This document shows, in pieces, positions 3,366 through 19,595 of a DNA stretch of 19,595 nt. A program made the translations under genes and the position numbers. The DNA is from a virus. Location of the stretch: the UHGV virus genome UHGV-0349066; one strand, 5' to 3'. Positions within the stretch are counted from its first letter, which is position 1; every line of letters starts with the position of its first letter. The notes under the pieces are model-generated. The model was not told the DNA's origin. It searched no databases and saw only the letters and a list, made by a program, of their open reading frames with translations.

Positions 3366-3371
3366 GTTATA

Positions 3372-3653: not shown

Positions 3654-3655
3654 TT

Positions 3656-4171: not shown

Positions 4172-4213
4172 TTAATGCTCCTTTAGGTAGATAGTGTGGT
4201 GTTTAAGCCTTCA

Positions 4214-5059: not shown

Positions 5060-5070
5060 GTTATAGTTCC

Positions 5071-6362: not shown

Positions 6363-6389
6363 CTAATCCTCCTTTAGGCTATAACTAAT

Positions 6390-6440
6390 AGAGCGAATGT
6401 AAATTTCGCTCTCCCCTAGGTAATATATATCTGAGAAAAA
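6390..6440 (-). promoter_or_regulatory. phage promoter-like motif TCAGATATATATTACCTAGG followed by 5'-proximal hairpin (copy 1)
   Basis: Minus-strand motif (plus 6417-6434) directly downstream of the terminator T-run; 8-bp hairpin AGAGCGAA / TTCGCTCT at 6390-6412; near-identical motif plus a different hairpin at 1739-1780. Confidence 0.4.
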
Positions 6441-6481
6441 ATAAAAAAAAGAAAGGTAGTAGGGGCTTAGCCCCTACTACC
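6435..6481 (-). terminator. rho-independent terminator ending the fibre/adhesin gene block
   Basis: 12-bp stem GGTAGTAGGGGC / GCCCCTACTACC (6455-6466 / 6470-6481), loop TTA, followed on the minus strand by TTTCTTTTTTTTATTTTTT. Confidence 0.8.
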
Positions 6482-6487
6482 TAAAAA

Positions 6488-7108: not shown

Positions 7109-7110
7109 TA

Positions 7111-7623
7111 TTAACCTCCAAAGGTTAAGACACGGTTATCTGCGGTAACGATTAAATCGTTGTCTTTTACTACAGCGGCTTCTTCATCGTTACCGAAAAC
7201 CAGAACGGAGAATTGGCCTTTATAACCTAACGAGTTGGGTGAAACCTGTAACGTTACAGCGTCTTTCCCCACGGTAAATGAATCGTCCTGAAGATCTTCG
7301 GGTTGCAGGTTACTGCCACAGGCTGCGTTAATCGCGTCGATTAAATCGTGTGTGCTAAACCCCTCACCAGTTACTTGCACCAGAATAGGTTGCTGGTTTA
7401 ACCAACGTTCTGCGGTTAAACGGTTGTAATAGATTTGTAACGTTCTGTTACCGGGACGTTTTATCTTTACAACAGCAGTGGTGTCACGATCCATTTCGTT
7501 ACTGGTCTTTACGTCGCTGACTTCAACCTCGTTCTCTTGCAAGTCGAGCTGGAGGTCATGGTTAACCAGTGAAATAACCATGTTAAGTGAAGTTAACGAC
7601 AAATCTGGCGTGAATTGTTCCAC
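7111..7623 (-). CDS. hypothetical fibre-associated protein, paralog of the 13829..14389 product (170 aa)
   Basis: GTG start at 7623 with AGGAGG upstream; shares motifs PDLSL, VNHD and CGSNLQPEDL with the other paralog (FCGTNLQPEDL). Confidence 0.7.
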   Translation of the reverse strand: MEQFTPDLSLTSLNMVISLVNHDLQLDLQENEVEVSDVKTSNEMDRDTTAVVKIKRPGNRTLQIYYNRLTAERWLNQQPILVQVTGEGFSTHDLIDAINAACGSNLQPEDLQDDSFTVGKDAVTLQVSPNSLGYKGQFSVLVFGNDEEAAVVKDNDLIVTADNRVLTFGG

Positions 7624-7678
7624 GTATGGTTACCTCCTATGATTGGGGAGACGTAAAATGTTGGCTAAAAACATTTCA

Positions 7679-7688
7679 CCCCCCCCCC
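7679..7688. repeat. homopolymer C10 (G10 on the coding strand) in an intergenic region
   Basis: Ten consecutive C at 7679-7688 between the gp38-like paralog stop (7723) and the start of the 7111..7623 gene, flanked by two AT-rich hairpins. Confidence 0.9.
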
Positions 7689-7722
7689 GATTACGTTTTC
7701 AAGCACATTCGCTTGAAAATTA

Positions 7723-8166
7723 TTAACTGATTTTGAAATCTCTTAACGTACCAGTTGATTTCATCACGTTTTGGAACGCGGCACTAATGTTGTTGGTCCA
7801 GTAATAATGTTGACCATTAATAACCTGTTGATAAGTCAACGTACAAGTATTACCACCCAGGTTTACAGTAATGTTAGAAGCTCTCCCACCTTGTAAGTAA
7901 ACCGCTAAAGTAGGCTTTGCGTTGGTAAATATCGTCGTTAACTGTAACTCGATACCTACTAAAGTTCCCACCCCGCAGTTACCCGCGTTTTGAATGGTCC
8001 CCTGATTTTTCTGGTTTAACGGCCAGTTTGGTCCTACTGCACCCCATTTATTACCTAAGGAATCGCTATATGCGGCAGTTGCAATTTTACAGCCCATTGA
8101 TCGTCCCACCATTTGACTCATCATAAAAGGTCTACCCAATCCTAATTTACTACCCGCAGCGCTCAT
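7723..8166 (-). CDS. gp38-like adhesin paralog with divergent C-terminal domain; N-terminus apparently disrupted (likely extends to ATG at 8225 across a frameshift)
   Basis: Minimal ORF from ATG 8166. The in-frame sequence upstream back to the stop of the preceding gene encodes VDGVASGWVGSSARNETGEQW, homologous to the N-terminus of the 8242..9024 product; AAGGAGG plus ATG at 8225..8223 is in another frame, separated by a G4 run. Confidence 0.55.
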   Translation of the reverse strand: MSAAGSKLGLGRPFMMSQMVGRSMGCKIATAAYSDSLGNKWGAVGPNWPLNQKNQGTIQNAGNCGVGTLVGIELQLTTIFTNAKPTLAVYLQGGRASNITVNLGGNTCTLTYQQVINGQHYYWTNNISAAFQNVMKSTGTLRDFKIS

Positions 8167-8241
8167 CCATTGTTCGCCCGTTTCATTCCTAGCTGAAGAT
8201 CCGACCCATCCTGACGCTACCCCATCTACCCTCCTTTTTAA

Positions 8242-9024
8242 TTAAACACGTGAACCGTATATTGCACCTACTGCGTCCCATCTTGGCGCATTACCAGTAA
8301 CAGCTTTACCAGCTGCTCCGCCGTTATATTCTGTACCGTTACCATGAGTATTACATCTTCCTCCAGCAGCACCGACATTACCACCCGAACCGCCTGTATA
8401 TGCACTAAGAGACCCCTCACCAACAGATCCTTTACCAGGAGCGGAAATAGTACCAGCAGTTGCACCGGAACTCATATGAGAGGAAGACCCGCCAGCACCG
8501 AATGGGCGACCACCGCCACCACCAAATATTAGTCTACCCCTGTTACCGCCACCACCGCCGCCACCGCCTCCGGCAATAGCGCCACGGTTGGTTATACGCA
8601 GTCTGTTTCCTATTCCGTTCTGTATTGCGGTTCCACCTGCACCGCCTGGTGAGTTAGAACCGCCGTTGCCTCCTCTGCCGTATACTGTAACCCCAGGATT
8701 GATAACGAGTGTAATGGAGGAGTTCGGTAGGTCGCCAGGGAACTCTAAACAAGGAACTCCGCTACTATAAGACACTAAATCCCCCGTAATAGTCACAACG
8801 ACAGCAGTAGAGCCTAAAGAACGTAAATAGTTAATAAGAGTATCCTTATTATAGCTATGGTTAGCACCAATAGAATAATGGACCTCTTTTGATTTTCCCG
8901 CCAATTGCGACATCCAGCCTGGAACCGGCACACCAAGTGTGCGCATCGCGCCAGACATCCATTCGTTACCAGCTTCAGCTTTTGCTGAAGAACCAATCCA
9001 ACCACCTACGCCGACAACTGCCAC
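8242..9024 (-). CDS. T2-type gp38-like tail-fibre tip adhesin, glycine-rich (260 aa)
   Basis: GTG start overlapping the fibre TAG stop (TAGTG) with GGGAGA Shine-Dalgarno. N-terminus MAVVGVGGWIGSSA...WMSQLAG and motifs ITGDLVSYS, YGRGGNGG, AIAGGGGGGGGG, GGGGGRPFGAGG match my recollection of T2/K3-type gp38 adhesins with glycine-rich motifs. Confidence 0.75.
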   Translation of the reverse strand: MAVVGVGGWIGSSAKAEAGNEWMSGAMRTLGVPVPGWMSQLAGKSKEVHYSIGANHSYNKDTLINYLRSLGSTAVVVTITGDLVSYSSGVPCLEFPGDLPNSSITLVINPGVTVYGRGGNGGSNSPGGAGGTAIQNGIGNRLRITNRGAIAGGGGGGGGGNRGRLIFGGGGGRPFGAGGSSSHMSSGATAGTISAPGKGSVGEGSLSAYTGGSGGNVGAAGGRCNTHGNGTEYNGGAAGKAVTGNAPRWDAVGAIYGSRV

Positions 9025-12000
9025 TAGGATCTCCCTTTGATTTCGTTAACCTCTTGACGCAACGCTTTCATACCCTCTACTAACAGCGCAATAACACCAT
9101 TGTAGTTTAGACGTAAACGTTTTTCGCCTGAAATGACATCATCATCCTCAGACACAAGTTCAGGTAACGCTTCTAATGCGTCTTGAGCAATTAGACCTAC
9201 AGAGGTCTGCCAGCCGTCGTCAGGATGCTGAATTTCGTACAAATAACCGGTTAGTAACTCTAACCGATCCAAAGCTTTATCTAGTTTCACCAGATTACGT
9301 TTGTTACGACGGTCAGAACGAATCTGTACGTCGTTAAACGAACCGTTACCGCTGCCAGTAACGTTATGACCAAAGGTTACTTGACCGTTAGCATTATTAA
9401 AATACAACGGACGTAGACCGTTCCAGGAACCCGTTGCAGCTTGACCGGCGTCGGTTACTAAGAAATAGGTATTGGCACCATCGTTACGTAACATAAAGCC
9501 GTAGTTGCCGTAAGCGATTCGAAAATCAGGGTACTTAGTGACCAATTTACCGTTAACGGTTAAATCGCCACCTATAGTACCGCCCCCTGACGGTAACGCA
9601 CCGATGTCACCAGCGTTAGGCTTGTTGTGTGTGCTGTAAATCAGATAGACGGTACCGTCTGTTAGTCCTGCGGGTTTATTAGCCGTATAACTTGGCGATG
9701 TATGAATCGTTACGTTGGCATTACTAGTGTAATCCCACTGAATAGTAACACCGGTGGCGTAATTACCTATTTCAACATAAATATCGTAAGTGTCACCAGA
9801 TGTATTCACCCATGCAAAATTAGCGAAGCCGACTGAAGTCAGTCGCCATAACGCACCAGTAATACCTTTTGGATTCCCATTTCCTGCACGCAGAACCAGC
9901 TCAGAGATACCTGCTTGATGTGGGGAACCAACGTTAAACCCTGCACCACCAATCATGCTTATGTAAACCACGGAACTGGCTTGCGGCATCGTTACAGTTG
10001 CCAGTTTGAACCATCCGGCACCACCATTAAAAGACACAGTTGTTGTGTTCGCGGCACCAACATTTCGTAAGAATTTTCTCTTATCTGGAATATCGGCACC
10101 ATTCTGTTTCTTCTGCAATGACCCACCGGCCAATTCTACAGTTTGGCCAAGATTTAAACTTTCAGCCGTTATTTCGATGTTTTTGGTGCCGTCAAATGCG
10201 ATACCGTTAATGGTACGCGCTGTCTGCAATTTTGTTGCAGTGGCCGCGTTTCCGGTGGTCGACTGATTGCCCGTTTGGTTTACGCCAGGTAAGTTGATGT
10301 CTTTAGTACCATCAAAAGCTACACCACCTATATTTCGCGCAGTCTGGAGCTTAGTCGCTGTCGCGGCATTCCCCGTAGTCGATTGGTTACCGGTTTGGTT
10401 CACACCGGGCAGACTAATGTCTTGCGAACCGTCAAAGTTAACACCACCGATCTTACGTGGCGTTTGTAACTTAGTAGCGGTCGCTGCATTACCTGTCGTA
10501 TTCTGGTTACCTTGCTGGTTAACCCCCGGTAAATTGATATCCCCAGTACCGTCGAAGGTAACGCCCCCGATTCTGCGAGCGGTTTTCAGTTTCGTCGCGG
10601 TAGCGGCGTTGCCAGTAGTATCCTGATTACCGGTGGTATTTACACCAGGAATACTATCACGGGCAGTATAAACTTGTGCCCAATCTGACCACGGCGCATC
10701 CGCTGTATCACGTCGACTACGAATATAAACGGGTGCGTGCGCACCACTCGTGCCCGACCAACCAATTAACAGCTCACCTTCACCTAATGCGGCAGAACCA
10801 CCCAAATGCAGCAAGTTACCATAAGCGGTCGGATAACCGTTATTGTAAACTTCGTACATCTGAATACCAGGCGTACCTTTGTTTGAACCGGTTAGTGCAG
10901 TAACCCGACCACGACCTACCAGGGTGTTGATATTGATGTCAGCAGAACCATCGAATCTTACACCGTTAATATTTCTGGCGGTTTGAAGTTTAGTGGCTGT
11001 ACCAGCATTACCCGTGGTGTTTTGATTGCCCTGTTGGTTAACACCTGGGAGGTTAATATCACCACTACCGTCGAAAGCGACTCCACCAATTCTACGTGCG
11101 GTCTTTAATTTCGTTGCGGTTGAAGCATTGCCTGTTAACTCGCCTGCTAACCCTTTTGCAAAGGTCTGTTTTTCTGCCCAGGTGTGTGCTGCATTCAATA
11201 CAGGCATCTGTCGTGGTGTAATCGTACGACTACCTTTCTCACCAGCGATACGTACTGCAAAGAATCGATAGTTGGCAGTAGACACCGTACTACGCCAAAC
11301 CAACATACTCCGGCCTGATGTAGCGCCATCTGATGGACCAACCAGAATGCTAACTAGGTTACCGTCAATAACACCCCAATCCATTCCCGTAGGAATGTTT
11401 TTCATGGTGTTAAGCGGCGTACAGATTAACTCACCCGGTTTAAAGTCATAGGTTTGCCAGTCTAAAGGATCAACATTCGCACGTTCACCGCCGATACCTA
11501 ATACCAGCGGAAGCGAATACGATGTGAAAACCTCACGCCAATCGCTCCAAGCGTTACCCGTACGGATACGTTGAAATTTACGACCTTTAGTTTCTGTACC
11601 CGTACCGTAAGTAGTATAATTCTGTTCGACCCCTGTACCGTCTAAGCGTAAGGTAACTTCACAAACGCCTAATATGGTTTCACCAGAAGAACCGGTAAGT
11701 GGACCGTTAGTTGCTTCACCAGTGACACTGAAACGTCCCGGTTTAACGAGATCGTTAAAATTGGCTTTAAAGAAAGCACCGTCAGTCTGATAACCAACCT
11801 GAATCCAATCTTCCCATTGCGGGTTTGATGAATCCCATGTTGCGGTCAAACCACGAACATACATCGTACCACGACGTGTGGTGTATCGTTGCAACCGTCC
11901 GAAAAGACCACCTTCCATTACTTCTAGTACGCCTTGCGCGCCACCACCTTCTTCAGGGTAATGTCTGCTAAAAACAGCCAGCGAACTGCTTGAGTTTCGC

Positions 12001-13625
12001 CAGTTACCCATATGCTCAGCGCCACCCAAACTGTTCAAGTCTATAGCGGTAGATAATGGACGTACACCAGTAGTTACCATTCTCCACGGTGACCAGGGTC
12101 CATTGGCACCATTCCACTCGCCACTCAGCATACGGTTGTACACGTTACCATTACGACAGGTAAAACGCTGTGCGCCACTGTAATTACCGGCTTTATACAC
12201 TTCCAGATAACCGACTGCACCGTCTTCTGGGAAATGTTTTGCCATCGACGCATTGGTTGACGTCGACTTAGCCCACGTTCCTGTGTAATTGGCATCTGGA
12301 GCAAATGTGTTAATATCAGCATCTACAGGCATTTCGCCACGGAAACGCAGATAAGTGTCAGGAGACAGACCGATATTGCGAGCAAACGTTTCTTTATCTG
12401 GGATATCAGCGCCGTTAGAGTTTTTCTGTAACGCGCTATTCGCTTTATCTACAGTGGCTTTTAATCCCAAGAAATTGATGATATCCGCAGTTGACCCTTT
12501 CGCTAACAAGGATCTGGCCGTTTCTGTAAAATCCGTTAATCCGACTTTATTACTGCCAGTGAAATACATGAGTTTATTTGCCGCTGTGGTGACTGCGGCA
12601 ATGGCGGTGAGCAACGGACTGAGGGGTTGTTTCTGCGCAAGTTCCCCAGTAATCGTTGTTGCGAAGTTAGGGTCATTACCTAACGCCTCAGCTAATTCCG
12701 CTAAGGTATTTAACGTCTCGGGTGAAGAACCAACCAGTTCCGCAATCGCGTCACGCACCCAGGCCGTTGTGGAAATACTCGTGTCGTTTGAATCTTTCGG
12801 GGGTGTTGGGGATGACGGTTTACCCGTAAAATTCGGCGAATGTTTATTGGCTTTTAACTGTAATTCGTCATTCAGCTGTTTAACCGTGGACGGTGTGGCA
12901 GCCTCAGTCACGGATTCGCTAGTCAGCGTATCGTTAAGTTTAACGATACCTTTACCGGTTGTACTAGCGTCGATTAAGCCCTGCGCAGCGATTTTCTCCG
13001 CACGTAAGGCAGCTGACTCCGAACGTGTTGCTGCGCCCTCTGAACTTTCTTTATCTTTCGCGACCTGTGCAGCAATCTTCTCCACTGCGCCCTTACTGGC
13101 CTCAACTGAAGCCGCAGTATTCTCGACACCGGTAGCCGTCTGTTGGACTTGTCCGGCCTGTTGCGTAACCGTTTCTGCTTTCTTAGTTACATCAGCCGCT
13201 GCAGCCGTCACCGATTGTTCGCTTGTGGCGACAGCTTGAGCTTTCTCATTTACCGACTGTAATACAGTATCTACGGCAGTTTTCGCGGCTAAAACTTCAG
13301 CGTGTTTTTTGTTAACCTCAGCAGTTTTAGTGGCAACGGTTCCCGCTTGCTCGCTAACGGTGGAAGCTAACGTGTCAGTTTGTTGCTTCGCTGTTTCTGC
13401 TAAGTCTTTTGCTTGTGTGGCTTCTGTTGCAGACTGTTGTGATTTGGCCGCAGCCGTTTGTGCGTCAGCAACCGCGTTTCTGACGGTGTCAATATCCGCA
13501 ACAATCTCGCGGACAGGTAACTGATAATCCCTTTCGTCTTTCGAAAAAAGTAAAACGCCTTCACCGATATCCCCGGTGTATGGACGTAAATCGTGTAAAC
13601 GAATTTTCTTTACCGCTTTAGCCAT
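9024..13625 (-). CDS. long (L-shaped-type) tail fibre protein with C-terminal intramolecular chaperone / autoproteolytic domain (1533 aa)
   Basis: ATG at 13625; Ala-rich coiled-coil stalk; fibre motifs TLNTLAELAEALGNDPNFATT; 40-aa tandem repeats (GNAATATKLQTAR..FDG..DINLPGVNQ); C-terminal SDRRNKRNLVKLDKALDRLELLTGYLYEIQ...GLIAQDALEALPELV...NYNGVIALLVEGMKALRQEV typical of peptidase-S74-type chaperone domains. Confidence 0.9.
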   Translation of the reverse strand: MAKAVKKIRLHDLRPYTGDIGEGVLLFSKDERDYQLPVREIVADIDTVRNAVADAQTAAAKSQQSATEATQAKDLAETAKQQTDTLASTVSEQAGTVATKTAEVNKKHAEVLAAKTAVDTVLQSVNEKAQAVATSEQSVTAAAADVTKKAETVTQQAGQVQQTATGVENTAASVEASKGAVEKIAAQVAKDKESSEGAATRSESAALRAEKIAAQGLIDASTTGKGIVKLNDTLTSESVTEAATPSTVKQLNDELQLKANKHSPNFTGKPSSPTPPKDSNDTSISTTAWVRDAIAELVGSSPETLNTLAELAEALGNDPNFATTITGELAQKQPLSPLLTAIAAVTTAANKLMYFTGSNKVGLTDFTETARSLLAKGSTADIINFLGLKATVDKANSALQKNSNGADIPDKETFARNIGLSPDTYLRFRGEMPVDADINTFAPDANYTGTWAKSTSTNASMAKHFPEDGAVGYLEVYKAGNYSGAQRFTCRNGNVYNRMLSGEWNGANGPWSPWRMVTTGVRPLSTAIDLNSLGGAEHMGNWRNSSSSLAVFSRHYPEEGGGAQGVLEVMEGGLFGRLQRYTTRRGTMYVRGLTATWDSSNPQWEDWIQVGYQTDGAFFKANFNDLVKPGRFSVTGEATNGPLTGSSGETILGVCEVTLRLDGTGVEQNYTTYGTGTETKGRKFQRIRTGNAWSDWREVFTSYSLPLVLGIGGERANVDPLDWQTYDFKPGELICTPLNTMKNIPTGMDWGVIDGNLVSILVGPSDGATSGRSMLVWRSTVSTANYRFFAVRIAGEKGSRTITPRQMPVLNAAHTWAEKQTFAKGLAGELTGNASTATKLKTARRIGGVAFDGSGDINLPGVNQQGNQNTTGNAGTATKLQTARNINGVRFDGSADININTLVGRGRVTALTGSNKGTPGIQMYEVYNNGYPTAYGNLLHLGGSAALGEGELLIGWSGTSGAHAPVYIRSRRDTADAPWSDWAQVYTARDSIPGVNTTGNQDTTGNAATATKLKTARRIGGVTFDGTGDINLPGVNQQGNQNTTGNAATATKLQTPRKIGGVNFDGSQDISLPGVNQTGNQSTTGNAATATKLQTARNIGGVAFDGTKDINLPGVNQTGNQSTTGNAATATKLQTARTINGIAFDGTKNIEITAESLNLGQTVELAGGSLQKKQNGADIPDKRKFLRNVGAANTTTVSFNGGAGWFKLATVTMPQASSVVYISMIGGAGFNVGSPHQAGISELVLRAGNGNPKGITGALWRLTSVGFANFAWVNTSGDTYDIYVEIGNYATGVTIQWDYTSNANVTIHTSPSYTANKPAGLTDGTVYLIYSTHNKPNAGDIGALPSGGGTIGGDLTVNGKLVTKYPDFRIAYGNYGFMLRNDGANTYFLVTDAGQAATGSWNGLRPLYFNNANGQVTFGHNVTGSGNGSFNDVQIRSDRRNKRNLVKLDKALDRLELLTGYLYEIQHPDDGWQTSVGLIAQDALEALPELVSEDDDVISGEKRLRLNYNGVIALLVEGMKALRQEVNEIKGRS
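10134..10613 (-). repeat. four tandem ~120-bp coding repeats within the tail fibre gene (40-aa units GNAATATKLQTAR.IGGV.FDG..DINLPGVNQ.GNQ.TT)
   Basis: Protein residues about 1005-1164 show period-40 repeats; the DNA copies differ mainly at synonymous positions. The ORF track shows the repeat as mirrored plus-strand ORFs 10006..10266 and 10267..10626. Confidence 0.8.
10893..11132 (-). repeat. two further copies of the 120-bp fibre coding repeat
   Basis: Protein residues about 832-911 (GNASTATKLKTARRIGGVAFDGSGDINLPGVNQQGNQNTT, GNAGTATKLQTARNINGVRFDGSADININ...). Confidence 0.75.
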
Positions 13626-13684
13626 GATATTTAATTCTCTATCGGGAGCTAAAAGATCTGAGGAAGTGTTTTACCCCCTCAACA

Positions 13685-13706
13685 TTTTTATAAGCGGATT
13701 ATTATA
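13685..13706 (-). promoter_or_regulatory. candidate promoter elements upstream of the long tail fibre gene
   Basis: Perfect TATAAT on the minus strand (plus 13701-13706) and an adjacent TATAAAAA (plus 13685-13692) resembling the T4 late promoter TATAAATA, inside an unusually long 203-nt intergenic spacer; no good -35 element. Confidence 0.3.
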
Positions 13707-13828
13707 CTGGTTTTAATCCATCATCTTCTAACGTGAAAGTGATGCCCAACTCCGCGCTTCATGATTTGGGATTGTTAAGTTTTGATAAATGTTTGCTTTG
13801 ACCTCCATTACCGGTAAAACGGTCAAGT

Positions 13829-14389
13829 TCATGTAGCCGGGTTTTCTTCAGCTGTGTCGTCATCTGGAACCTCAAAGGTAAGAACAGCATCATCACCAAT
13901 ACAGAAGATCGCGTCATCTTCGTTTGCTAATGCTCGTTCGGTTGTATCGAATAACGTTACCATAAACGCATTCATCCACGCAGGAGAATCGTCAGCAACG
14001 TTAACAGCAATGGGTTCGTTACCTAAGGTGATATCTGCAGCACGTAAATCTTCGGGTTGTAAGTTCGTTCCGCAGAATTCATTTACAACACCTAAAATGT
14101 CACGAAGGTTGTCTTCGGTACCATCTAACGAAATCAAAATAGGTTCAGACGCTAACACTTCGTCCGCATCCAAACGGTCGTAATAAACAACCACAGAAGC
14201 ACCATCAGGTTTCCTGATTTTTGTAATCTCTGTCAGTGTGTTACGACGCGAAGTGGTCGGGGACGGGTTTGCCATAGTGTTGCTAATACGGATTTCGTTT
14301 AGAGACAACCGTGAACCGTTATCGTGGTTGATTAAAGCGACCACTAATTCGGCTGAGGCCAGACTTAAATCAGGTACGTAAGTAGTCAC
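13829..14389 (-). CDS. hypothetical fibre-associated protein, paralog of the 7111..7623 product (186 aa; start refined)
   Basis: GTG at 14389 with GGGAGG 5 nt upstream; start position matches the paralog start (MTTYVPDLSL vs MEQFTPDLSL). The ORF-track N-terminal extension to 14458 is the translated terminator hairpin and T-run. Confidence 0.7.
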   Translation of the reverse strand: MTTYVPDLSLASAELVVALINHDNGSRLSLNEIRISNTMANPSPTTSRRNTLTEITKIRKPDGASVVVYYDRLDADEVLASEPILISLDGTEDNLRDILGVVNEFCGTNLQPEDLRAADITLGNEPIAVNVADDSPAWMNAFMVTLFDTTERALANEDDAIFCIGDDAVLTFEVPDDDTAEENPAT

Positions 14390-14404
14390 TAAAACCTCCC
14401 AGAT

Positions 14405-14450
14405 CAAAAAAAAAATAAAAACACCTACCGCCCATAGAATCGGGCGGTAG
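14405..14450 (-). terminator. rho-independent terminator, 6 nt upstream of the ribosome-binding site of the 13829..14389 gene
   Basis: 9-bp GC-rich stem CTACCGCCC / GGGCGGTAG (14425-14433 / 14442-14450), 8-nt loop, then GTGTTTTTATTTTTTTTTT on the minus strand. Confidence 0.75.
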
Positions 14451-14484
14451 GCAGTCATTTTACAGCTAAAAATCGAAGTAGTTA

Positions 14485-14919
14485 CTACGCTTTAACGGAC
14501 TTTGCTAGATTGATATCAAAGAATCGGATTTCTAAAATTTTATCGTTGCGATACATTATGCGTGGTTTTAGATCTACGTAACCATGCTCAATAATAAAGT
14601 TTCGAACATCGTCACCGTACACACCACCCGGACAAAACTCACCATAAACTTCAACGTTATTATCGTCCGCTGTCACCATGATGTCAGTAAGATGGCCACC
14701 AGAAAATTCAATTCTGACAGTTTTTGGAAAGTCAGTATTGAATTCTGTAGGATCTTTAATAGCCTCACAAACGCTCATGTGATGTCTTAGTAGGCGCGCA
14801 AACGCTGCGGAGGGATTTTCAGGATCGTAGAAATCCGAACGAGGTAATGTCAATAATAACCCTTTAACTTTAATATCCTGTCTTTCAGGTATCACCGTTA
14901 TTTCTGCTTTTACTTTCAT
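14485..14919 (-). CDS. hypothetical protein (144 aa; start refined)
   Basis: ATG at 14919 overlapping the TGA of the upstream gene (ATGA), GGAGAA Shine-Dalgarno; ORF-track start at 14937 lies inside the upstream gene. Confidence 0.6.
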   Translation of the reverse strand: MKVKAEITVIPERQDIKVKGLLLTLPRSDFYDPENPSAAFARLLRHHMSVCEAIKDPTEFNTDFPKTVRIEFSGGHLTDIMVTADDNNVEVYGEFCPGGVYGDDVRNFIIEHGYVDLKPRIMYRNDKILEIRFFDINLAKSVKA

Positions 14920-15290
14920 TCGATTAATTCTCCACACAACTCAACGTCGATACCAAACATCAATCCCACTTCTTGAAGCTTGCTCGCCAGTAGATGACGA
15001 TGGCAAAACTTGCCTGCGGGACAATAACACATCAAAACCAAATCTTCGTGTCTAAGTAATGACACTAAAGTTTCGGCGTCGGTATCTAACAGTCGTTCGA
15101 GTTTGTACAAATACTTTATCGTGTACTCGCGTTCAGCAGCTGCATCCTTTGCAGAGTTTTTATACGCCATTAAGAAATCCCAGTCGGGGGCGAGTTCCTT
15201 TCGCCCTGACTTCACAGTGATATCCACTGCGTGAAACCCTTTCTGCTTAGCTAACCGCCACTTAGCGAGCTGTAACGTCCAGATACGCAT
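14916..15290 (-). CDS. hypothetical protein with C-terminal Cys/His motif CYCPAGKFCHRH (124 aa)
   Basis: ATG at 15290 overlapping the upstream TAA (TAATG); motif C-x-C-x5-C-H-x-H suggests metal binding, possibly DUF488-like (unverified). Confidence 0.6.
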   Translation of the reverse strand: MRIWTLQLAKWRLAKQKGFHAVDITVKSGRKELAPDWDFLMAYKNSAKDAAAEREYTIKYLYKLERLLDTDAETLVSLLRHEDLVLMCYCPAGKFCHRHLLASKLQEVGLMFGIDVELCGELIE

Positions 15291-15490
15291 TAGGAACGAG
15301 TCTGCGATTCAGCCATCAGCGCACAACTTTTCACAGCCTGTGCATGAAGCTCTGTACCGGGTGTGTAATCCTTTATACAATCCTGATACAATTCACGTTT
15401 TGTTTCTAGAACACGATTATCGTACTCAGCACTTGCTAGTGCACCTGCGATAAGGATAAAAACTAGAATCGGCAACCAAATTTTCATCAT
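15290..15490 (-). CDS. small secreted or membrane-anchored protein with predicted signal peptide and Cys pair (66 aa)
   Basis: ATG overlapping upstream TGA; N-terminus MMKIWLPILVFILIAGALASA is signal-peptide-like (ASA then EY); paralogous to the adjacent upstream small protein. Confidence 0.55.
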   Translation of the reverse strand: MMKIWLPILVFILIAGALASAEYDNRVLETKRELYQDCIKDYTPGTELHAQAVKSCALMAESQTRS

Positions 15491-15696
15491 CCATCTCCCA
15501 TTCGTTTAGCGTATTCCGTACACGCCATTACTAATTCGGCGTAACGTGGATCGTCTACGGTCTTTCCAGACATACACTCACGATAAAGGCTTTCTTTGCG
15601 CGAGTCATCTGACACACGGACATAAAACATCAGCATCGTCACAACCAGCACGGTTGAAACAATCGCTGAGATGATGTATCCATTAGCTCTTTTCAT
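15487..15696 (-). CDS. small membrane-anchored protein with Cys pair (69 aa from ATG 15696; alternative start ATG 15711 gives 74 aa)
   Basis: Hydrophobic segment YIISAIVSTVLVVTMLMFYV; ATG at 15696 overlaps the upstream TGA (ATGA). C-terminal region (YRECMSG...DPRYAELVMACTEYAKRM) is paralogous to the 15290..15490 product (YQDCIKD...AQAVKSCALMAE). Confidence 0.5.
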   Translation of the reverse strand: MKRANGYIISAIVSTVLVVTMLMFYVRVSDDSRKESLYRECMSGKTVDDPRYAELVMACTEYAKRMGDG

Positions 15697-16214
15697 CGTA
15701 TAAAACACCATGGTTCTGGATAAAACCCTGTAAGTAAATCAACGTAAAAACTATGTAAATTTGTTAGTGTTATAACGCACCCTAACAAATCATGCTCAGT
15801 ATGGTGATAAATCACTACAGATGTTTCTGATACCCGTTTAACATGTATATGACCCACGTCTTTAATGCTCTGATACAATCGTCCGAAATCGACCGTACCG
15901 ACAGCATCAGATGAATCCGTAACCGAGTACCGTATTCGTGGAGTCTCATTATTTACTAACGAAAGAAATTTCTCCACACTTTCAGCATGGATTTGTTCCA
16001 TAAAGGATAAGTGTGGGAACACTTCTTTACGTAACGCGCTGCTTGAAATCTTAGCAAAAACCTGACGTTCCGTTAAGCGCATTAACTCGCCTAATCTTTT
16101 CAAGTCTTTGTTATAGTTCAGAAAAGCAACCACCTTTTCATCGTGCGTAATAGGCGGCCATTCGACCGCCTTTGCCCGACGTTGCTTAAACCAACTCGCA
16201 AGTCGCGCTATCAC
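15693..16214 (-). CDS. hypothetical protein (173 aa)
   Basis: GTG at 16214, 2 nt after the upstream TAA, with AGGAAGAGGA upstream. Confidence 0.55.
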   Translation of the reverse strand: MIARLASWFKQRRAKAVEWPPITHDEKVVAFLNYNKDLKRLGELMRLTERQVFAKISSSALRKEVFPHLSFMEQIHAESVEKFLSLVNNETPRIRYSVTDSSDAVGTVDFGRLYQSIKDVGHIHVKRVSETSVVIYHHTEHDLLGCVITLTNLHSFYVDLLTGFYPEPWCFIR

Positions 16215-16216
16215 GC

Positions 16217-16909
16217 TTAGTAATCCTCTTCCTGATTCACTACCGATTGGATACGGGATGCGACTTCGTTAGTGTCCAGGTCAGTTTCGTCTACCTTATC
16301 CACAAGTTTCTGTACTTTACGTACATGTGATTCGGTAATATCAAAACGACCACGATCAGCTAACAGCAACGTTACCATGTCCTTACGTGTAACCATCAGT
16401 TCTTCTTCAGGTAAGTGTAAGGATTTGTCTAACAGACCCGAATGCATGAAGTTTTCCAGTAAGCGTTCTTCCCCCTGGTCGAAATCATAACGTTCGTTAG
16501 GTGCAGCAACGAAAGCATAACCGAAGTAGTTTTCTTCCGTCTCGCGTAACGACTTGATGATCTTGTCACCGTGTTGACAGAAATCACTTAACGTGTAGTC
16601 GTCAAGCGTTGCCACGATGGTTTCTGCTTGCACACCGTTATCTGTTTCGTACAGATGAGCAACCCAGAGTTTCCAGTTACGTGGCTCGTCAAACAAACCA
16701 CCGATTAACATATCGGTAGCCGCCATGCGCATACGCGGTGACGTTGTAAACTGGAAACCACGGCCCGCGTACGGACCGATAGGACGAATAGAGCTACCGA
16801 CGAAAGTAATGCGGTTTAGCGCATTTTCAGCAATGGTGTGCGCAGTACGGTTAGCAGCGGCTTTCGGGTTATACTTTTTGTTACGTGGTTTCTTTTGTTT
16901 GGTAGCCAT
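16217..16909 (-). CDS. hypothetical protein with basic N-terminus (230 aa)
   Basis: ATG at 16909 overlapping the upstream TAA (TAATG); Lys/Arg-rich N-terminus MATKQKKPRNKKYNPK. Confidence 0.65.
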   Translation of the reverse strand: MATKQKKPRNKKYNPKAAANRTAHTIAENALNRITFVGSSIRPIGPYAGRGFQFTTSPRMRMAATDMLIGGLFDEPRNWKLWVAHLYETDNGVQAETIVATLDDYTLSDFCQHGDKIIKSLRETEENYFGYAFVAAPNERYDFDQGEERLLENFMHSGLLDKSLHLPEEELMVTRKDMVTLLLADRGRFDITESHVRKVQKLVDKVDETDLDTNEVASRIQSVVNQEEDY

Positions 16910-17391
16910 TATTTATTCTCAACTAATACTGTGTGAAATGCTTTGTAGAGAGCTTGACGTGTCTCAATTAACGCGGGACGATTAATCAAGCACATGTATC
17001 CGATTTGCCATGCCCAATAAGACGTGTCATCGGTATTTAACCCGTAATCAGGCTCAGGATATAATAATTCTGAATCCACTTCTGGCAAATGAAGACGACA
17101 CAAACTAAGATTCCAAAAATTGGCTAAGTCACTTTTTGCAAGTTCAGACATCACCTGCATCGGTATCCTATTTCCAAGAGCATCCGTTGCGAAGATAATA
17201 CGGAGGTGCCCTGGAGACTTAGAATAGATGCCATGTCCTTCACAAGACCAGATCGAAACAACATGCGGATAATCGTTAATCAGTTTACAAATATCACGAA
17301 CACCTTTCTCAATGTCACCGTTTTTGGCTGCAAGCTGAGCACGCTCTTTAAATGACGCTAGTCTTTCTGCATCAACAGAAAATTGATTCAT
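16909..17391 (-). CDS. hypothetical protein (160 aa)
   Basis: ATG at 17391 overlapping the upstream TGA (ATGA). Confidence 0.65.
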   Translation of the reverse strand: MNQFSVDAERLASFKERAQLAAKNGDIEKGVRDICKLINDYPHVVSIWSCEGHGIYSKSPGHLRIIFATDALGNRIPMQVMSELAKSDLANFWNLSLCRLHLPEVDSELLYPEPDYGLNTDDTSYWAWQIGYMCLINRPALIETRQALYKAFHTVLVENK

Positions 17392-17852
17392 GTTGGATTC
17401 TTCCCTAAAATTATCTCACGCATTTCCAGGTAGGTGTCAAACGGCACCACGGTGTCTTTATAACGTAGCGTTACGTAGGTTACAAAATGTTGGGGTGCCA
17501 GGAAAGGACGTTTTGGTGACCCGTCGTGATTGTAATACTGCTTCGGACGATATTTGTTGAAAATATCTTCCCGTGGGAACAGTGATTTCTGAATAACCAC
17601 TTCCCAACGGTGTGGCGTTTCCAAGAGCCCAATACGGATCAGCATACCGTCTACCCACCGGCTCATGTTTTCGGTTAATACGAAACTGACGTGGTGGTGC
17701 TGTACCTCTGCTAACGCGACTTCGGGTTCTTTATCCAGTCGCATTAATACCGCAAACAGTGGGCGATAATCAGAATCGTACAAGTCACGGAAAGCAGTTT
17801 TCTCGCGCTGTTTAAACAACTCAACAATTTCTTTAGATTCGAAGTAATTCAT
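17388..17852 (-). CDS. hypothetical protein (154 aa; start refined)
   Basis: ATG at 17852 overlaps the upstream TGA (ATGA) with GGGGA Shine-Dalgarno; ORF-track start at 17894 is GTG inside the upstream gene. Confidence 0.6.
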   Translation of the reverse strand: MNYFESKEIVELFKQREKTAFRDLYDSDYRPLFAVLMRLDKEPEVALAEVQHHHVSFVLTENMSRWVDGMLIRIGLLETPHRWEVVIQKSLFPREDIFNKYRPKQYYNHDGSPKRPFLAPQHFVTYVTLRYKDTVVPFDTYLEMREIILGKNPT

Positions 17853-18244
17853 TTTGAAATCCCCAATTCGTAAGTAACTAAATCGAACAAACACATTTCC
17901 AACATCGCTTGATACAATGTGTGTTCCCCATTACCCACAAAACCATTGTTCAACATTTTATACGTATCTACCCCAAACATCGTCTTTACGTCTATAGGAC
18001 GTTTTTCGAGAATACGTAATAGCGATATTTCCATTACAATCCAATAAGCAGGCTCAATCCTAATTCTGAATAACGGATTGATTTTACTTATTGTTTTATC
18101 CCAGATATTAAACCAGCGAACCCATTCGGTGCTATTCTGGGGTTTACGCAATCTAAGACGCGTATACGGTGAGTTGTTATATTGGTCGATAAATGTCCTA
18201 ATGACATCAGCTTTTCTTGACATTATACCTATTATTGCGGTCAT
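17849..18244 (-). CDS. hypothetical protein (131 aa)
   Basis: ATG at 18244 with TAGGAGAA Shine-Dalgarno. Confidence 0.6.
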   Translation of the reverse strand: MTAIIGIMSRKADVIRTFIDQYNNSPYTRLRLRKPQNSTEWVRWFNIWDKTISKINPLFRIRIEPAYWIVMEISLLRILEKRPIDVKTMFGVDTYKMLNNGFVGNGEHTLYQAMLEMCLFDLVTYELGISK

Positions 18245-18290
18245 CTCTATATTCTCCTAATCATTAAAATAGCCGCAGTTGTAAAAAAGA

Positions 18291-18812
18291 CTACGGGTTA
18301 AAAGGTAGCGGTTTGCAATCCCGCTTTTTCAACTCCTCTACTAACTCAGGTAATGTACACCAACGTTTAAATTGGTTGTTAGCTTTAAAGTGGCTGAGAA
18401 TCTCCTCAATGCGCTCAATAGACCACTTCCCTTTCCCTACGTTGTCTAGATCCTTACGTAGCGAGAGCGTCTCAATGGTAAACGCTAACTCTGAACTATC
18501 CGAATGGTCGTACAACAATCTTACTGGTGTTGGTTGGTGTAGCGTAACACGCCACCCTGACTCTTTAGCCCAGTAGACGTCTTTAATACGTCCACTAACA
18601 TCAATTATAGAACTAATATAAGTCCACTCTCCTTCTAGTTTGTTCTCTTCAGCAGTTAATGCTTCTTCTAATCGTAGAGAATTAGGGGACGGAATCCACC
18701 AACCGTACTTACCGTAATAATCGTCTATTACAGTAATACCTTCGTAATACAGATATTGTGTTTTTGTATTAACGAATATTTCATCGCCAATTAAGACAGC
18801 GTTTATCTTCAT
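18291..18812 (-). CDS. hypothetical protein (173 aa)
   Basis: ATG at 18812 overlapping the upstream TGA (ATGA). Confidence 0.65.
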   Translation of the reverse strand: MKINAVLIGDEIFVNTKTQYLYYEGITVIDDYYGKYGWWIPSPNSLRLEEALTAEENKLEGEWTYISSIIDVSGRIKDVYWAKESGWRVTLHQPTPVRLLYDHSDSSELAFTIETLSLRKDLDNVGKGKWSIERIEEILSHFKANNQFKRWCTLPELVEELKKRDCKPLPFNP

Positions 18813-19297
18813 CGTAAGTGCTTCCTGTAAAATAAGTCATAGGTGGTCGAGCTAGATGGATCAATAGAACCTACCAATGGCATAATTTTCTTTTCTGATA
18901 TTCCAGTTGCCCAAGCAGCCCGCGCAAAGCCGCCACCAGAACCCGTTGTCCAAACCGCATTTTTATTTATTACAAACGTTTTAAACTTATCTGCTACTAA
19001 CGTCAACCAATGTGTTTCTCTAGCCGTAAAAATGACGATTTGATCGTATATTCGCTCTTTTTCGATAAGATCTGCAAACAGGGGCTCAACTTTCTTACGT
19101 TTATCCTCGTCTAAATATTTTTCTATAGCAGCGGTAATCGACATTTTCCAAAACTCGGTGTCCAGTACACGTTCACCCGTGTAGAAAACAAACTTGTTTT
19201 TGTGTTTATGCAGTTTGGGCAATTCTTTAACCGTACCAGCATAATCCACAAGTCGGTCAGCTAAAATGTAATCCTTTGTTACTAATACCGTTGTCAT
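18809..19297 (-). CDS. hypothetical protein (162 aa; start refined)
   Basis: ATG at 19297 with GAGGT 5 nt upstream, immediately downstream of the terminator; the ORF-track extension to 19411 would translate the terminator hairpin. Confidence 0.6.
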   Translation of the reverse strand: MTTVLVTKDYILADRLVDYAGTVKELPKLHKHKNKFVFYTGERVLDTEFWKMSITAAIEKYLDEDKRKKVEPLFADLIEKERIYDQIVIFTARETHWLTLVADKFKTFVINKNAVWTTGSGGGFARAAWATGISEKKIMPLVGSIDPSSSTTYDLFYRKHLR

Positions 19298-19311
19298 CAC
19301 GCACCTCGAAG

Positions 19312-19348
19312 AAAAATAAAAGTACCCTCTCTCCAGACGGAGAGAGGG
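19312..19348 (-). terminator. rho-independent terminator
   Basis: Perfect 10-bp stem CCCTCTCTCC / GGAGAGAGGG (19325-19334 / 19339-19348) with 4-nt loop, followed on the minus strand by TACTTTTATTTTT. Confidence 0.7.
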
Positions 19349-19355
19349 GCACTGC

Positions 19356-19595
19356 TTAAATCTTACGACTGCTACCGTAGCAGCCACAACCTGCTGTCGT
19401 TTTCGCAGCACTGGCCGGTGCTAACGCAACCATCGTGCCGTCGTCCTTAACAATCTGCAAGTTACCTGCGCGAATCAGACCTTTAAAGGTAATCTTCACA
19501 CCCTTACGTAAACTCTTCACATTGAAGCCGTCGAGTTTGAGTGTTTTAACCTTTTCAGGTTTACCTTCTTCGTAATAGGAAAGAACATTACCTGC
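19356..19595 (-). CDS. hypothetical protein (C-terminal 79 codons only; gene starts beyond window end)
   Basis: Open frame from the window edge to TAA at 19358..19356 (…KTTAGCGCYGSSRKI), followed by a rho-independent terminator. Confidence 0.5.
   Translation of the reverse strand, partial: AGNVLSYYEEGKPEKVKTLKLDGFNVKSLRKGVKITFKGLIRAGNLQIVKDDGTMVALAPASAAKTTAGCGCYGSSRKI

What the first reader, a model, noticed from the sequence alone, without database searches (positions are those of the whole stretch)
15290..15711. Tandem paralogous small exported Cys-pair proteins, reminiscent of periplasmic lysis-inhibition factors
Two adjacent, translationally coupled genes encode 66- and 69-aa proteins with an N-terminal signal peptide or signal-anchor and a ~40-aa C-terminal domain with two conserved Cys (YQDCIKD...AQAVKSCALMAE vs YRECMSG...AELVMACTEYAKRM). 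The architecture, and loosely the C-terminal sequence (DDP...AELVMACTEYAKRM), recalls the T4 RI antiholin periplasmic domain as I remember it; alternatives are superinfection-exclusion or spanin-like factors. The duplication suggests diversification of a periplasm-facing sensor.
Basis: inference. Interest (0 to 1): 0.5.

Follow-up and report, generated by a model that had tools for sequence, protein, structure and literature searches.

The report
Paired exported Cys-pair mini-proteins, jumbo phage
Two tiny neighbouring genes of a giant phage encode related proteins, one anchored in the inner membrane and one free, that are predicted to face the space outside that membrane; they belong to an undescribed family shared with SPN3US-like phages, are not relatives of the T4 lysis-inhibition protein RI, and their function is still unknown.

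Summary
On the minus strand, gene B (15490-15696, 69 aa) and gene A (15293-15487, 65 aa) are real, overlapping genes under purifying selection (dN/dS about 0.18-0.19; 0.04 in A's core). B has an uncleaved N-terminal membrane anchor. A has a classic AxA signal peptide. Both end in a roughly 40-aa helix-loop-helix with an invariant C-x17-C.

They are distant paralogs. The direct comparison is weak (P about 1e-3), but a metagenomic lipoprotein, P0085, bridges them (P = 8e-10 and 8e-6).

The RI interpretation fails every test run here: no sequence similarity to authentic T4 RI (P = 0.3-0.4), a different Cys spacing, no RI or Spackle among fold matches, and no recognisable holin or lysis gene nearby.

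Instead, the pair belongs to an uncharacterised superfamily. Its other members, SPN3US gp116 and gp118 (phrog_28359 and phrog_10627), lie in the same gp115-to-DUF488 block.

The window comes from a 'Bapsvirus'-like chimallivirus known only from bacterial assemblies. Function is inferred only: periplasmic binding modules acting at the inner-membrane face, most plausibly in superinfection exclusion, less likely in lysis timing. Interest is modest.

The parts
15490..15696 (-). Gene B coding sequence (69 aa; stop codon at 15487-15489). Membrane-anchored Cys-pair protein.
   Evidence: ORF found. The start is supported by 70-aa homologs beginning MKINDGY/MKRADGY. dN/dS is 0.18. PGAP did not annotate it in the relatives.
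15619..15678 (-). B residues 7-26 (YIISAIVSTVLVVTMLMFYV): uncleaved signal-anchor / transmembrane helix.
   Evidence: The best 19-residue Kyte-Doolittle mean is 2.43 (residues 8-26). K2 and R3 precede the segment and no AxA site follows it. This segment is the most conserved part of B, with dN/dS 0.11. AF2 models it as helix 3-42.
15490..15618 (-). B residues 27-69: helix-loop-helix ectodomain with Cys41 (15574-15576) and Cys59 (15520-15522).
   Evidence: Alignment A2 shows LYRECM and the second Cys (C59) invariant. AF2 predicts helices 3-42 and 52-67 at pLDDT 69.9. hhalign against P0085 gives P = 7.8e-10.
15293..15487 (-). Gene A coding sequence (65 aa from the second ATG; stop at 15290-15292). 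Secreted Cys-pair protein.
   Evidence: ORF found. 51 of the 52 homolog clusters are 65 aa (one is a 47-aa fragment). dN/dS is 0.19.
15428..15487 (-). A residues 1-20: Sec signal peptide (MK / IWLPILVFILIAGAL / ASA, cleavage before EYD). There is no lipobox Cys.
   Evidence: n/h/c regions are present and the -3/-1 AxA rule is met. The 11-residue KD mean is 3.19. This is the fastest-evolving part of A, with dN/dS 0.39, as expected for a signal peptide.
15293..15427 (-). A residues 21-65: mature helix-loop-helix domain with Cys37 (15377-15379) and Cys55 (15323-15325).
   Evidence: The core, residues 33-59, is nearly invariant across 17 clusters, with dN/dS 0.04 at dS 0.75. AF2 gives pLDDT 85.6 with helices 4-38 and 46-64.
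15495..15499 (-). GGGAG Shine-Dalgarno for gene A, lying inside the 3' end of gene B.
   Evidence: Read directly from the sequence. The spacing suits the ATG at 15487, not the one at 15490.
15485..15490 (-). B stop / A start overlap (ATGATG-A).
   Evidence: Read directly from the sequence. The same 4-nt overlap is called in all relatives.
15693..16214 (-). Upstream 173-aa ORF of unknown function. Its stop overlaps the B start (ATGA at 15693-15696).
   Evidence: It matches no family and has no SPN3US counterpart by BLASTP. dN/dS is 0.25.
14916..15290 (-). Downstream DUF488-N3a gene (homolog of SPN3US gp120). Its start overlaps the A stop (TAATG).
   Evidence: Pfam PF22751 at E = 8e-12. blastn hits to the STsAS DUF488 gene. 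Junction read.
14485..14937 (-). 150-aa homolog of SPN3US gp117 (diverged prohead-protease paralog). Last gene of the transcription unit.
   Evidence: BLASTP against gp117 gives E = 1.7e-9. phrog_7478 at E = 1.8e-5. gp117 is described in PMC5694885.
14422..14453 (-). Strong terminator-like hairpin (13 bp stem, 8 GC pairs, T-run) that ends the operon containing the pair.
   Evidence: Found. It is intergenic once the 209-aa ORF is trimmed to the start used by its relatives.
16217..16909 (-). 230-aa homolog of SPN3US gp115. Upstream synteny anchor.
   Evidence: 63% identity, E = 1.7e-111. phrog_6965 at E = 9e-81.

Best explanation
Anatomy (shown or strongly supported):
- A and B are two co-transcribed, translationally coupled genes.
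- They are anciently diverged copies of one small domain: a helix-loop-helix of about 40 residues with one invariant Cys on each helix.
- B keeps an uncleaved N-terminal transmembrane anchor, so its domain would be tethered to the periplasmic face of the inner membrane.
- A has a cleavable Sec signal peptide, so its 45-residue domain would be released free into the periplasm.
- The domain defines an undescribed superfamily. Other members are SPN3US gp116 (membrane-anchored, phrog_28359), SPN3US gp118 and its Erwinia and Pseudomonas phage relatives (signal peptide or lipoprotein, phrog_10627), and a metagenomic lipoprotein, P0085.
- In SPN3US the two copies lie in the same gp115-to-DUF488 block as here.

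Mechanism (inferred, not shown):
- The Cys pair is probably oxidised by the host Dsb system to clasp the hairpin, or to link subunits.
- The two proteins are made in coupled amounts and act as periplasmic binding modules at or near the inner-membrane surface, possibly as a heteromer.
- Their target would be a conserved envelope component or a phage component that crosses the envelope.
- My single most likely functional guess is exclusion of superinfecting phage, following the logic of T4 Imm plus Spackle: one membrane-bound factor and one periplasmic factor. I put this at about 0.25-0.3.
- Control of lysis timing in the manner of RI is a less likely alternative.
- They are not homologs of RI, Spackle or spanins.
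For: Real genes:
- Intact in 9 of 9 diverged loci with the order and overlaps kept.
- dN/dS is 0.19 and 0.18; A's core is 0.04 at dS 0.75.

Targeting signals: KD profiles, an AxA site in A, and K/R followed by a 20-residue hydrophobic helix in B.

Fold: AF2 predicts helix-loop-helix in both proteins, with pLDDT 85.6 and 69.9.

Paralogy:
- BLASTP E = 0.001, an ungapped 31-residue alignment with the same C-x17-C register, shuffle z about 6.
- hhalign P = 7e-4.
- Each is the other's top hit in the window, and tied top among 1838 ORFs of a whole relative genome.
- P0085 bridges them: P = 7.8e-10 to B and 7.8e-6 to A.

Superfamily:
- The gp118-family profile against the merged profile gives P = 6.5e-7 at 92% probability.
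- P0085 hits phrog_10627 at E = 7.7e-5 in a library-wide scan.
- gp116 against the merged profile gives P = 1.3e-4 in the same Cys register.
- Both Cys are invariant across all five lineages.

Synteny: gp115, gp117 and gp120 homologs flank the pair.

Periplasmic location of B's domain follows from homology. Four other lineages carry the same domain behind signal-peptide or lipoprotein signals.

Inner-membrane proximity: B and gp116 are anchored, and P0085 has Asp at position +2 after the lipid-modified Cys. Under the established E. coli Lol-avoidance rule this is an inner-membrane retention signal.

Timing hint: the pair closes a long minus-strand array of non-structural genes (Dam, DHFR and DnaB lie upstream in the relative), and a terminator separates it from the tail-fibre module. 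This fits early or middle expression rather than late lysis genes.

Ecology: the clade is known only as persistent episome-like contigs in bacterial isolates (PMC12768965). In that setting, exclusion of superinfection would be useful.
Against: - There is no experimental or homology-based functional evidence at all. Every related family is annotated 'unknown function'.
- Signal and topology calls are heuristic. No SignalP or TMHMM was available.
- The positive-inside bias of B is weak in relatives whose N-terminus reads MKINDG.
- In the AF2 secondary-structure output, the first Cys lies at the end of helix 1 and the second lies two turns into helix 2. I could not see coordinates, so an intramolecular disulfide is unverified; intermolecular bonds are equally possible.
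- The direct A-B similarity is only about 1e-3, and by raw score it is matched by two unrelated ORFs genome-wide.
- The gp116 link is weak on sequence alone (P = 1e-4 to 2e-3).
- Nothing points specifically to exclusion rather than to other envelope functions.
Confidence: 0.4

Rival explanations
1. RI-like antiholin. One or both proteins bind the periplasmic part of the phage holin and delay lysis, perhaps in response to superinfection. On this view they are functional analogs of T4 RI, not homologs.
For: The general architecture is similar: a small protein, an N-terminal export or anchor signal, and a helical periplasmic domain with two Cys. T4 rI is also unlinked from its holin gene (established T4 genetics), so distance from lysis genes does not exclude the idea. 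Inner-membrane tethering (B, gp116, P0085) would place the domain next to a holin.
Confidence: 0.12
2. Modulators of a host envelope sensor or machine, in the manner of the small membrane proteins MgrB and SafA, which act on the periplasmic domain of PhoQ. The phage would use the pair to reprogram envelope stress signalling, cell-wall synthesis or transport during infection or during carrier-state persistence.
For: B has the same layout as SafA and MgrB: a type II membrane protein under 70 aa with a short periplasmic tail, which in MgrB carries two essential Cys (established knowledge). The strongly conserved surface (dN/dS 0.04) fits a conserved host target. The family occurs in phages of Salmonella, Escherichia, Erwinia and Pseudomonas, which fits a target common to Gram-negative envelopes.
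Against: There is no Pfam hit to MgrB or any such family at E <= 1. The resemblance is architectural only. It does not explain why a soluble copy and a tethered copy are both kept.
Confidence: 0.1
3. Two-component spanin-like pair. B would be the inner-membrane subunit and A the outer subunit, joining to disrupt the outer membrane at lysis.
For: The genes are adjacent and overlapping. One protein is a type II membrane protein and the other is exported. Both carry periplasmic Cys, as in Rz and Rz1.
Against: A has no lipobox Cys and ends its signal with ASA|E. B's ectodomain (about 43 aa) plus A (45 aa), both folded as hairpins, are far too short to span the periplasm. A and B are homologous to each other, unlike spanin subunits. 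They are not near endolysin genes.
Confidence: 0.03
4. Dispensable or non-functional small ORFs: conserved filler with no specific role, or gene-calling artefacts.
For: PGAP did not call B in two RefSeq records. No function is known for any relative.
Against: Both show purifying selection, with synonymous divergence up to 0.75. Both are retained in all 9 loci, and there are dozens of 90%-identity clusters of each. Cys, aromatic and Ala positions are conserved across five lineages. The synteny with SPN3US is maintained.
Confidence: 0.03

Closest known systems
SPN3US gp116 (phrog_28359) and gp118 (phrog_10627), both uncharacterised 'hypothetical proteins' of Seoulvirus and Erskinevirus jumbo phages
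   Same: They share the Cys-pair helix-loop-helix domain, with both Cys, the aromatic at -3 and the Ala at +4 conserved. Both phage groups have the same division into one membrane-anchored copy (gp116, like B) and one signal-peptide copy (gp118, like A). Both pairs occupy the same genomic block, between the gp115 homolog and the DUF488 gene and close to the gp117 protease paralog. Profile links: P = 6.5e-7 for the gp118 family against the merged profile, 1.3e-4 for gp116, and P0085 to phrog_10627 at E = 7.7e-5.
   Different: A and B hit neither PHROG directly. gp118 has C-x21-C and a C-terminal extension of about 45 residues that A lacks. In SPN3US the two genes are separated by gp117, and gp119 lies before DUF488; here B and A abut and overlap. 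One-to-one orthology could not be resolved: A, B and gp116 are roughly equidistant.
T4 RI (lysis-inhibition antiholin)
   Same: It is a small phage protein with an N-terminal membrane-targeting segment and a helical periplasmic domain containing two Cys. Its gene is not linked to the holin gene.
   Different: There is no detectable sequence or fold relationship. RI has C-x5-C rather than C-x17-C. RI has a releasable SAR-type anchor, whereas A has a cleavable signal and B a strongly hydrophobic anchor. No T-type holin partner was recognised.
T4 Imm plus Spackle (Sp) superinfection-exclusion pair
   Same: The logic is the same: one inner-membrane protein and one small Sec-exported periplasmic helical protein, made by a virulent phage.
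   Different: There is no sequence or fold similarity. Imm and Sp are unrelated to each other and their genes are not adjacent, whereas A and B are paralogs and are translationally coupled. The function here is untested.
Rz/Rz1 two-component spanins
   Same: Adjacent or overlapping genes encode a type II inner-membrane protein and a second exported protein, both with periplasmic Cys.
   Different: A has no lipobox. The ectodomains are far too short. The subunits are homologous to each other. The pair is not in a lysis cassette.

Membership tests
T4 RI antiholin family | Detectable sequence homology to RI | tested here: not met
   The RI sequence was verified at 100% identity to the T4 rI product. 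hhalign P = 0.37 (B family) and 0.31 (A family). Shuffle z = -1.2 and +1.6. No RI chain appeared in the PDB profile searches at E <= 10.
T4 RI antiholin family | RI periplasmic-domain fold | tested here: not met
T4 RI antiholin family | Signal-anchor-release (SAR) N-terminal domain | tested here: inconclusive
   B's segment is strongly hydrophobic (19-residue KD mean 2.43), with only 5 of 20 residues being Ala, Ser or Thr. A has a standard cleavable AxA signal. This is a heuristic assessment only; there is no experimental release assay.
T4 RI antiholin family | Binds the periplasmic domain of a cognate (T-type) holin and delays lysis | not testable with these tools
   No holin was recognised among candidate membrane proteins of the complete relative genome by PHROGs or Pfam or in the PGAP annotation. 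Binding and lysis timing need experiments.
SPN3US gp116 / gp118 superfamily (phrog_28359, phrog_10627; function unknown) | Shared Cys-pair helix-loop-helix domain at profile level | tested here: met
   B family to P0085, P = 7.8e-10. A family to P0085, P = 7.8e-6. P0085 to phrog_10627, E = 7.7e-5. gp118-family profile to merged profile, P = 6.5e-7. gp116 to merged profile, P = 1.3e-4. The direct A or B hits to either PHROG are not significant.
SPN3US gp116 / gp118 superfamily (phrog_28359, phrog_10627; function unknown) | Export signal placing the domain outside the cytoplasm | tested here: met
   All members have an N-terminal signal peptide, lipobox or anchor. These are heuristic reads of the sequences.
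SPN3US gp116 / gp118 superfamily (phrog_28359, phrog_10627; function unknown) | Syntenic position between the gp115 homolog and the DUF488 (gp120) gene | tested here: met
   win230 = gp115 at E = 1.7e-111. win150 = gp117 at E = 1.7e-9. DUF488 identified. SPN3US gene order.
Two-component spanin (Rz/Rz1 type) | Outer-membrane subunit is a lipoprotein (lipobox with Cys) | tested here: not met
   A's signal ends ...AGALA-S/N-A|E, with no Cys, in 16 of the 17 aligned A-family sequences; the one exception has stray Cys that are not a lipobox.
Two-component spanin (Rz/Rz1 type) | Periplasmic domains long enough to bridge inner and outer membranes, located in a lysis cassette | tested here: not met
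   The ectodomains are 43 and 45 aa and are predicted to be folded hairpins. The nearest endolysin-type genes are about 20 kb away.
T4 Spackle (Sp) | Sequence or fold homology to Spackle | tested here: not met
T4 Spackle (Sp) | Inhibits the tail-associated lysozyme of superinfecting phage | not testable with these tools
   This needs exclusion assays and binding to the virion SLT or lysozyme proteins of this clade.
Cor / Llp lipoprotein exclusion factors | Lipoprotein signal and family homology | tested here: not met
   A and B have no lipobox. There are no PHROG hits to Cor or Llp families. Only the signal peptide of the distant relative KoPa4_95 grazes the Cor PHROG, at E = 0.055.

The most novel reading that the evidence does not exclude
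The tethered and soluble Cys-pair proteins may form a heteromeric periplasmic device conserved across Seoulvirus, Erskinevirus and 'Bapsvirus' chimalliviruses. It would control an envelope decision: immunity to superinfection, or postponement of lysis. It would thereby contribute to the carrier-like persistence that makes these virulent jumbo phages turn up as episome-like contigs in hundreds of bacterial isolate assemblies. That would be the first envelope-level regulator described for nucleus-forming phages, and a new protein family for that role.
Probability: 0.15. Interest if true: 0.6.

Novelty: new variant of a known kind. Interest (0 to 1): 0.3.

Why it matters
Nothing is known about how nucleus-forming jumbo phages (Chimalliviridae) control events at the cell envelope, such as lysis timing, exclusion of competitors, or the carrier-like state reported for Seoulvirus and 'Bapsvirus' in bacterial isolates. 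The recent review I consulted says nothing about lysis or periplasmic factors.

This analysis defines a small, sequence-novel family of exported Cys-pair proteins. It is kept as a tethered-plus-soluble pair at a syntenic locus in at least two genera, including the genetically tractable phage SPN3US (gp116 and gp118). That gives a concrete, cheap target for knock-out and expression experiments.

The analysis also corrects the RI analogy. In addition, it shows that gene B is missing from the RefSeq annotation of these genomes.

If the proteins prove dispensable accessory factors, the finding is ordinary: one more family of small phage periplasmic proteins of unknown function.

Tried and rejected
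1. RI homology. It was tested with a verified RI sequence, PDB profile searches and fold searches, and all were negative.
2. Direct hits of A or B in Pfam, PHROGs, NCBIfam, PADLOC, and tblastn against 50,697 phage genomes. None was found.
3. Exhaustive profile search of 1.84 billion representatives. Only P0085 is a real new relative. P0086 and P0087 are repeat-driven artefacts: a eukaryotic RRM protein with low-complexity repeats, and a translated tandem repeat.
4. A third word-indexed search with a profile that included P0085. It found no new families.
5. Further paralogs in the genome. There are none in the window or in a complete 221,873-bp relative.
7. The idea that the family is always paired with the gp117 protease paralog. 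Rejected, because KoPa4_94 is an HExxH zincin unrelated to gp117.
8. Scans of viral contigs and genome contigs with P0085 and KoPa4_95. They gave only spurious matches through the lipoprotein signal word: a MazG-like protein and an Acinetobacter lipoprotein. The superfamily alignment was too diverged for pattern scanning.
9. The moron hypothesis, that the pair has its own promoter and terminator. Rejected, because the pair is chained by overlaps inside an operon.
10. Holin identification. None was recognisable among the candidates.
Full report
**The observation.** Both ORFs are present at the stated coordinates, on the minus strand.
- Gene A occupies 15290-15490. The second ATG (15487) is the probable start, because a GGGAG Shine-Dalgarno lies 6 nt upstream and 51 of the 52 homolog clusters are 65 aa (the other is a 47-aa fragment).
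- Gene B is an ORF at 15487-15711. The 69-aa start at 15696 (MKRANGY...) matches the MKINDGY/MKRADGY starts of the relatives.
- B's TGA overlaps A's ATG. In addition, the upstream 173-aa ORF overlaps B (ATGA) and A overlaps the downstream DUF488 gene (TAATG).
- Four genes are therefore chained with no room for separate promoters. The unit ends, after one more gene, at a strong terminator-like hairpin at 14422-14453.

**Are they real genes?** Yes.
- A has 52 clusters at 90% identity, and B has 32. All come from one clade, found on contigs of about 220-230 kb from E. coli, Salmonella, Shigella and Enterobacter assemblies and from metagenomes.
- In nine loci spanning the clade's diversity, both ORFs are intact and the order 173/176-aa gene, B, A, DUF488 is kept (overlaps as called).
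- Nei-Gojobori dN/dS is 0.19 for A and 0.18 for B. For A, the signal peptide is the fastest part (0.39) and the hairpin core, residues 33-59, is nearly frozen (0.04 at dS 0.75). For B, the membrane segment is the most constrained part (0.11).
- PGAP did not annotate B in the two RefSeq records that carry it.

**Anatomy.**
- A starts with MK, then a 15-residue hydrophobic core, then ASA followed by EYD. This is a textbook Sec/SPase I signal with no lipobox Cys.
- B starts with MKR, followed by a 20-residue strongly hydrophobic helix (KD mean 2.43) with no cleavage motif. It reads as a type II signal-anchor. These are heuristic reads, since no dedicated predictor was available.
- AlphaFold2 with the family alignments predicts the same layout for both proteins: helix, loop, helix, with one Cys near the end of the first helix and one two turns into the second. 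pLDDT is 85.6 for A and 69.9 for B. I could not inspect coordinates, so I cannot say whether the disulfide would be intra- or intermolecular.

**Are A and B paralogs?**
- Direct evidence is modest. BLASTP gives E = 0.001 over an ungapped 31 residues with identical C-x17-C spacing. Shuffle z is about 6. Profile-profile comparison gives P = 7e-4.
- Within the window, each is the other's clear best match. Among the 1838 six-frame ORFs of a complete relative genome, however, B is only tied for best non-self match to A.
- The exhaustive profile search of 1.84 billion representatives supplied the missing link. P0085 is a 70-aa metagenomic lipoprotein with LSAC|D followed by LFRNC-x18-C. It matches the B profile at P = 7.8e-10 (96.5% probability) and the A profile at P = 7.8e-6.
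- Taking this together with adjacency, the shared architecture and the shared register, I regard homology as well supported.
- The genome holds exactly two copies.

**A wider family at a syntenic locus.** The window is distantly related to Seoulvirus (SPN3US, STsAS) and Derbicusvirus phages.
- In SPN3US the same block reads: gp115, gp116, gp117, gp118, gp119, gp120 (DUF488).
- The window's 230-aa protein is gp115 (63% identity, E = 1.7e-111). Its 150-aa protein is gp117 (E = 1.7e-9).
- gp116 (69 aa) has a membrane anchor followed by FRMC-x17-C, which is the layout of B.
- gp118 (110 aa) has a signal peptide followed by FLEC-x21-C plus a tail, which is A-like.
- The gp118-family profile (Salmonella, Erwinia and Pseudomonas phages) matches the merged A/B/P0085 profile at P = 6.5e-7.
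- P0085 hits its PHROG (phrog_10627) at E = 7.7e-5 in a library-wide scan.
- gp116 (phrog_28359) matches at P = 1.3e-4 to 1.8e-3, always with Cys aligned to Cys.
- Across all five lineages both Cys are invariant, with a conserved aromatic at -3 and Ala at +4.
- The domain is displayed behind three kinds of signal: cleavable, lipoprotein and uncleaved anchor. This places it outside the cytoplasm.
- All these families are annotated as of unknown function. The only literature mention I found is a remark that gp118 has the right length to be the missing C-terminus of the protease paralog gp117 (PMC5694885). The signal peptide makes that reading unlikely.

**The RI interpretation.** I verified my recalled RI sequence against T4 records at 100% identity.
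- RI shows no similarity to either family (hhalign P = 0.31 and 0.37; shuffle z +1.6 and -1.2), and its Cys pair is C-x5-C.
- Profile searches of every PDB sequence at E <= 10 found nothing phage-related.
- The pair is not near lysis genes. In the complete relative, endolysin-type domains lie about 20 kb away among tail genes, and a secreted transglycosylase lies about 60 kb away. No holin family is recognisable.
- Membership in the RI family is therefore rejected. An RI-like mode of action remains possible but unsupported.
- The spanin alternative fails on anatomy.

**Most likely mechanism.**
- Shown or strongly supported: two coupled genes produce one tethered and one soluble copy of a conserved, Cys-containing helical hairpin on the periplasmic side.
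- Inferred: oxidation by the Dsb system; joint action, possibly as a heteromer; and binding of a conserved target near the inner-membrane surface. Supporting the last point, B and gp116 are anchored there, and P0085 carries the Asp+2 retention signal known from E. coli.
- The pair sits at the end of a long array of non-structural genes rather than among late genes.
- The clade matches the proposed genus 'Bapsvirus', known only from bacterial isolate assemblies and suggested to persist in a carrier-like state (PMC12768965).
- On these grounds my leading guess is superinfection exclusion by the logic of T4 Imm plus Spackle (about 0.25-0.3). It is ahead of RI-like lysis delay (about 0.12) and modulation of a host envelope sensor (about 0.1). 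A large remainder is simply unknown.

**Novelty and verdict.** The specific analogy to RI is wrong. What remains is a sequence-novel but architecturally familiar family of small exported phage proteins with no known function. It is conserved as a pair in SPN3US-like jumbo phages. Interest is modest (0.3). The value lies in giving the chimallivirus field a defined, testable pair, SPN3US gp116 and gp118.

Noticed in passing
window 1-19595; relatives NZ_CP173450.1 (L005, L007-L011) and NZ_CP134650.1 (L004): The window belongs to a jumbo-phage clade of about 220-230 kb with no close relative among 50,697 GenBank phage genomes. The clade is nevertheless abundant in E. coli, Salmonella, Shigella and Enterobacter isolate assemblies. 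In RefSeq it is deposited as circular 'plasmids' (p98232-contig_4 of E. coli 98232, and unnamed1 of Enterobacter ludwigii 51A:C). This fits the proposed genus 'Bapsvirus' of PMC12768965.
   Followed up: partly
L005 3571-3783 (-) and L004 3684-3896 (-); window 15490-15696 (-): Gene B is intact and under purifying selection, but PGAP leaves it unannotated in both RefSeq records, where a gap of about 195 nt appears instead.
   Followed up: yes
window 14485-14937 (-): This 150-aa ORF is a homolog of SPN3US gp117, the diverged paralog of the prohead protease described in PMC5694885. Its presence downstream of DUF488 varies within the clade. It is present in the window and in L018, L019 and L025, and absent in L004, L005, L021, L022 and L024.
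   Followed up: partly
window 13829-14458 (-) and 14422-14453: The mechanical 209-aa ORF (DUF7941 virion structural protein) probably starts at about residue 23 (near 14392), as its 186-187-aa relatives do. The strong bidirectional terminator hairpin then falls in the intergenic space between the non-structural operon and the structural module.
   Followed up: partly
window 9024-13625 (-) compared with L005/L008: The tail-fibre region differs from that of the relatives. The window has a single 1533-aa fibre (gp34-type trimerisation domain plus an S74 intramolecular chaperone) directly after the DUF7941 gene. The relatives instead have a 153-aa gene and a 1001-aa 'phage tail protein' before a long tail-fibre gene. 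This is probably a swap of the host-range module.
   Followed up: no
window 14916-15290 (-): The DUF488-N3a gene, which is translationally coupled to gene A, gives weak hits to two candidate defence-system models in PADLOC: PDC-M45C at E = 1e-4 and PDC-M19A at E = 4e-4. Its role in the phage is unknown.
   Followed up: no
NZ_CP173450.1 211308-212270, 215948-217683, and 1909-3628: Other exported or membrane proteins of the clade could be lysis or envelope factors. They include a 167-aa protein with T4-holin-T-like topology (TM at residues 33-51) next to a 151-aa secreted protein, and a 159-aa multi-TM protein next to a signal-peptide SLT transglycosylase. There is also a cluster of three secreted Cys-containing proteins of 129-160 aa. 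None matches a family of known function.
   Followed up: partly
L013 142-339, L014 157-333, L017 160-336 (Erwinia phages pEa_SNUABM_29, Stratton, Asesino): In the Erwinia jumbo phages, a 58-65-aa protein with two transmembrane segments and no Cys pair is encoded immediately upstream of the gp118-family gene. It may be a membrane partner or may be coincidental.
   Followed up: no
L006 551-802 (+): On the metagenomic contig that carries P0085, the gene just upstream (83 aa) also encodes a small protein with an N-terminal hydrophobic segment and several Cys. It overlaps the P0085 start by 4 nt, which makes another coupled pair of small exported Cys-containing proteins.
   Followed up: no
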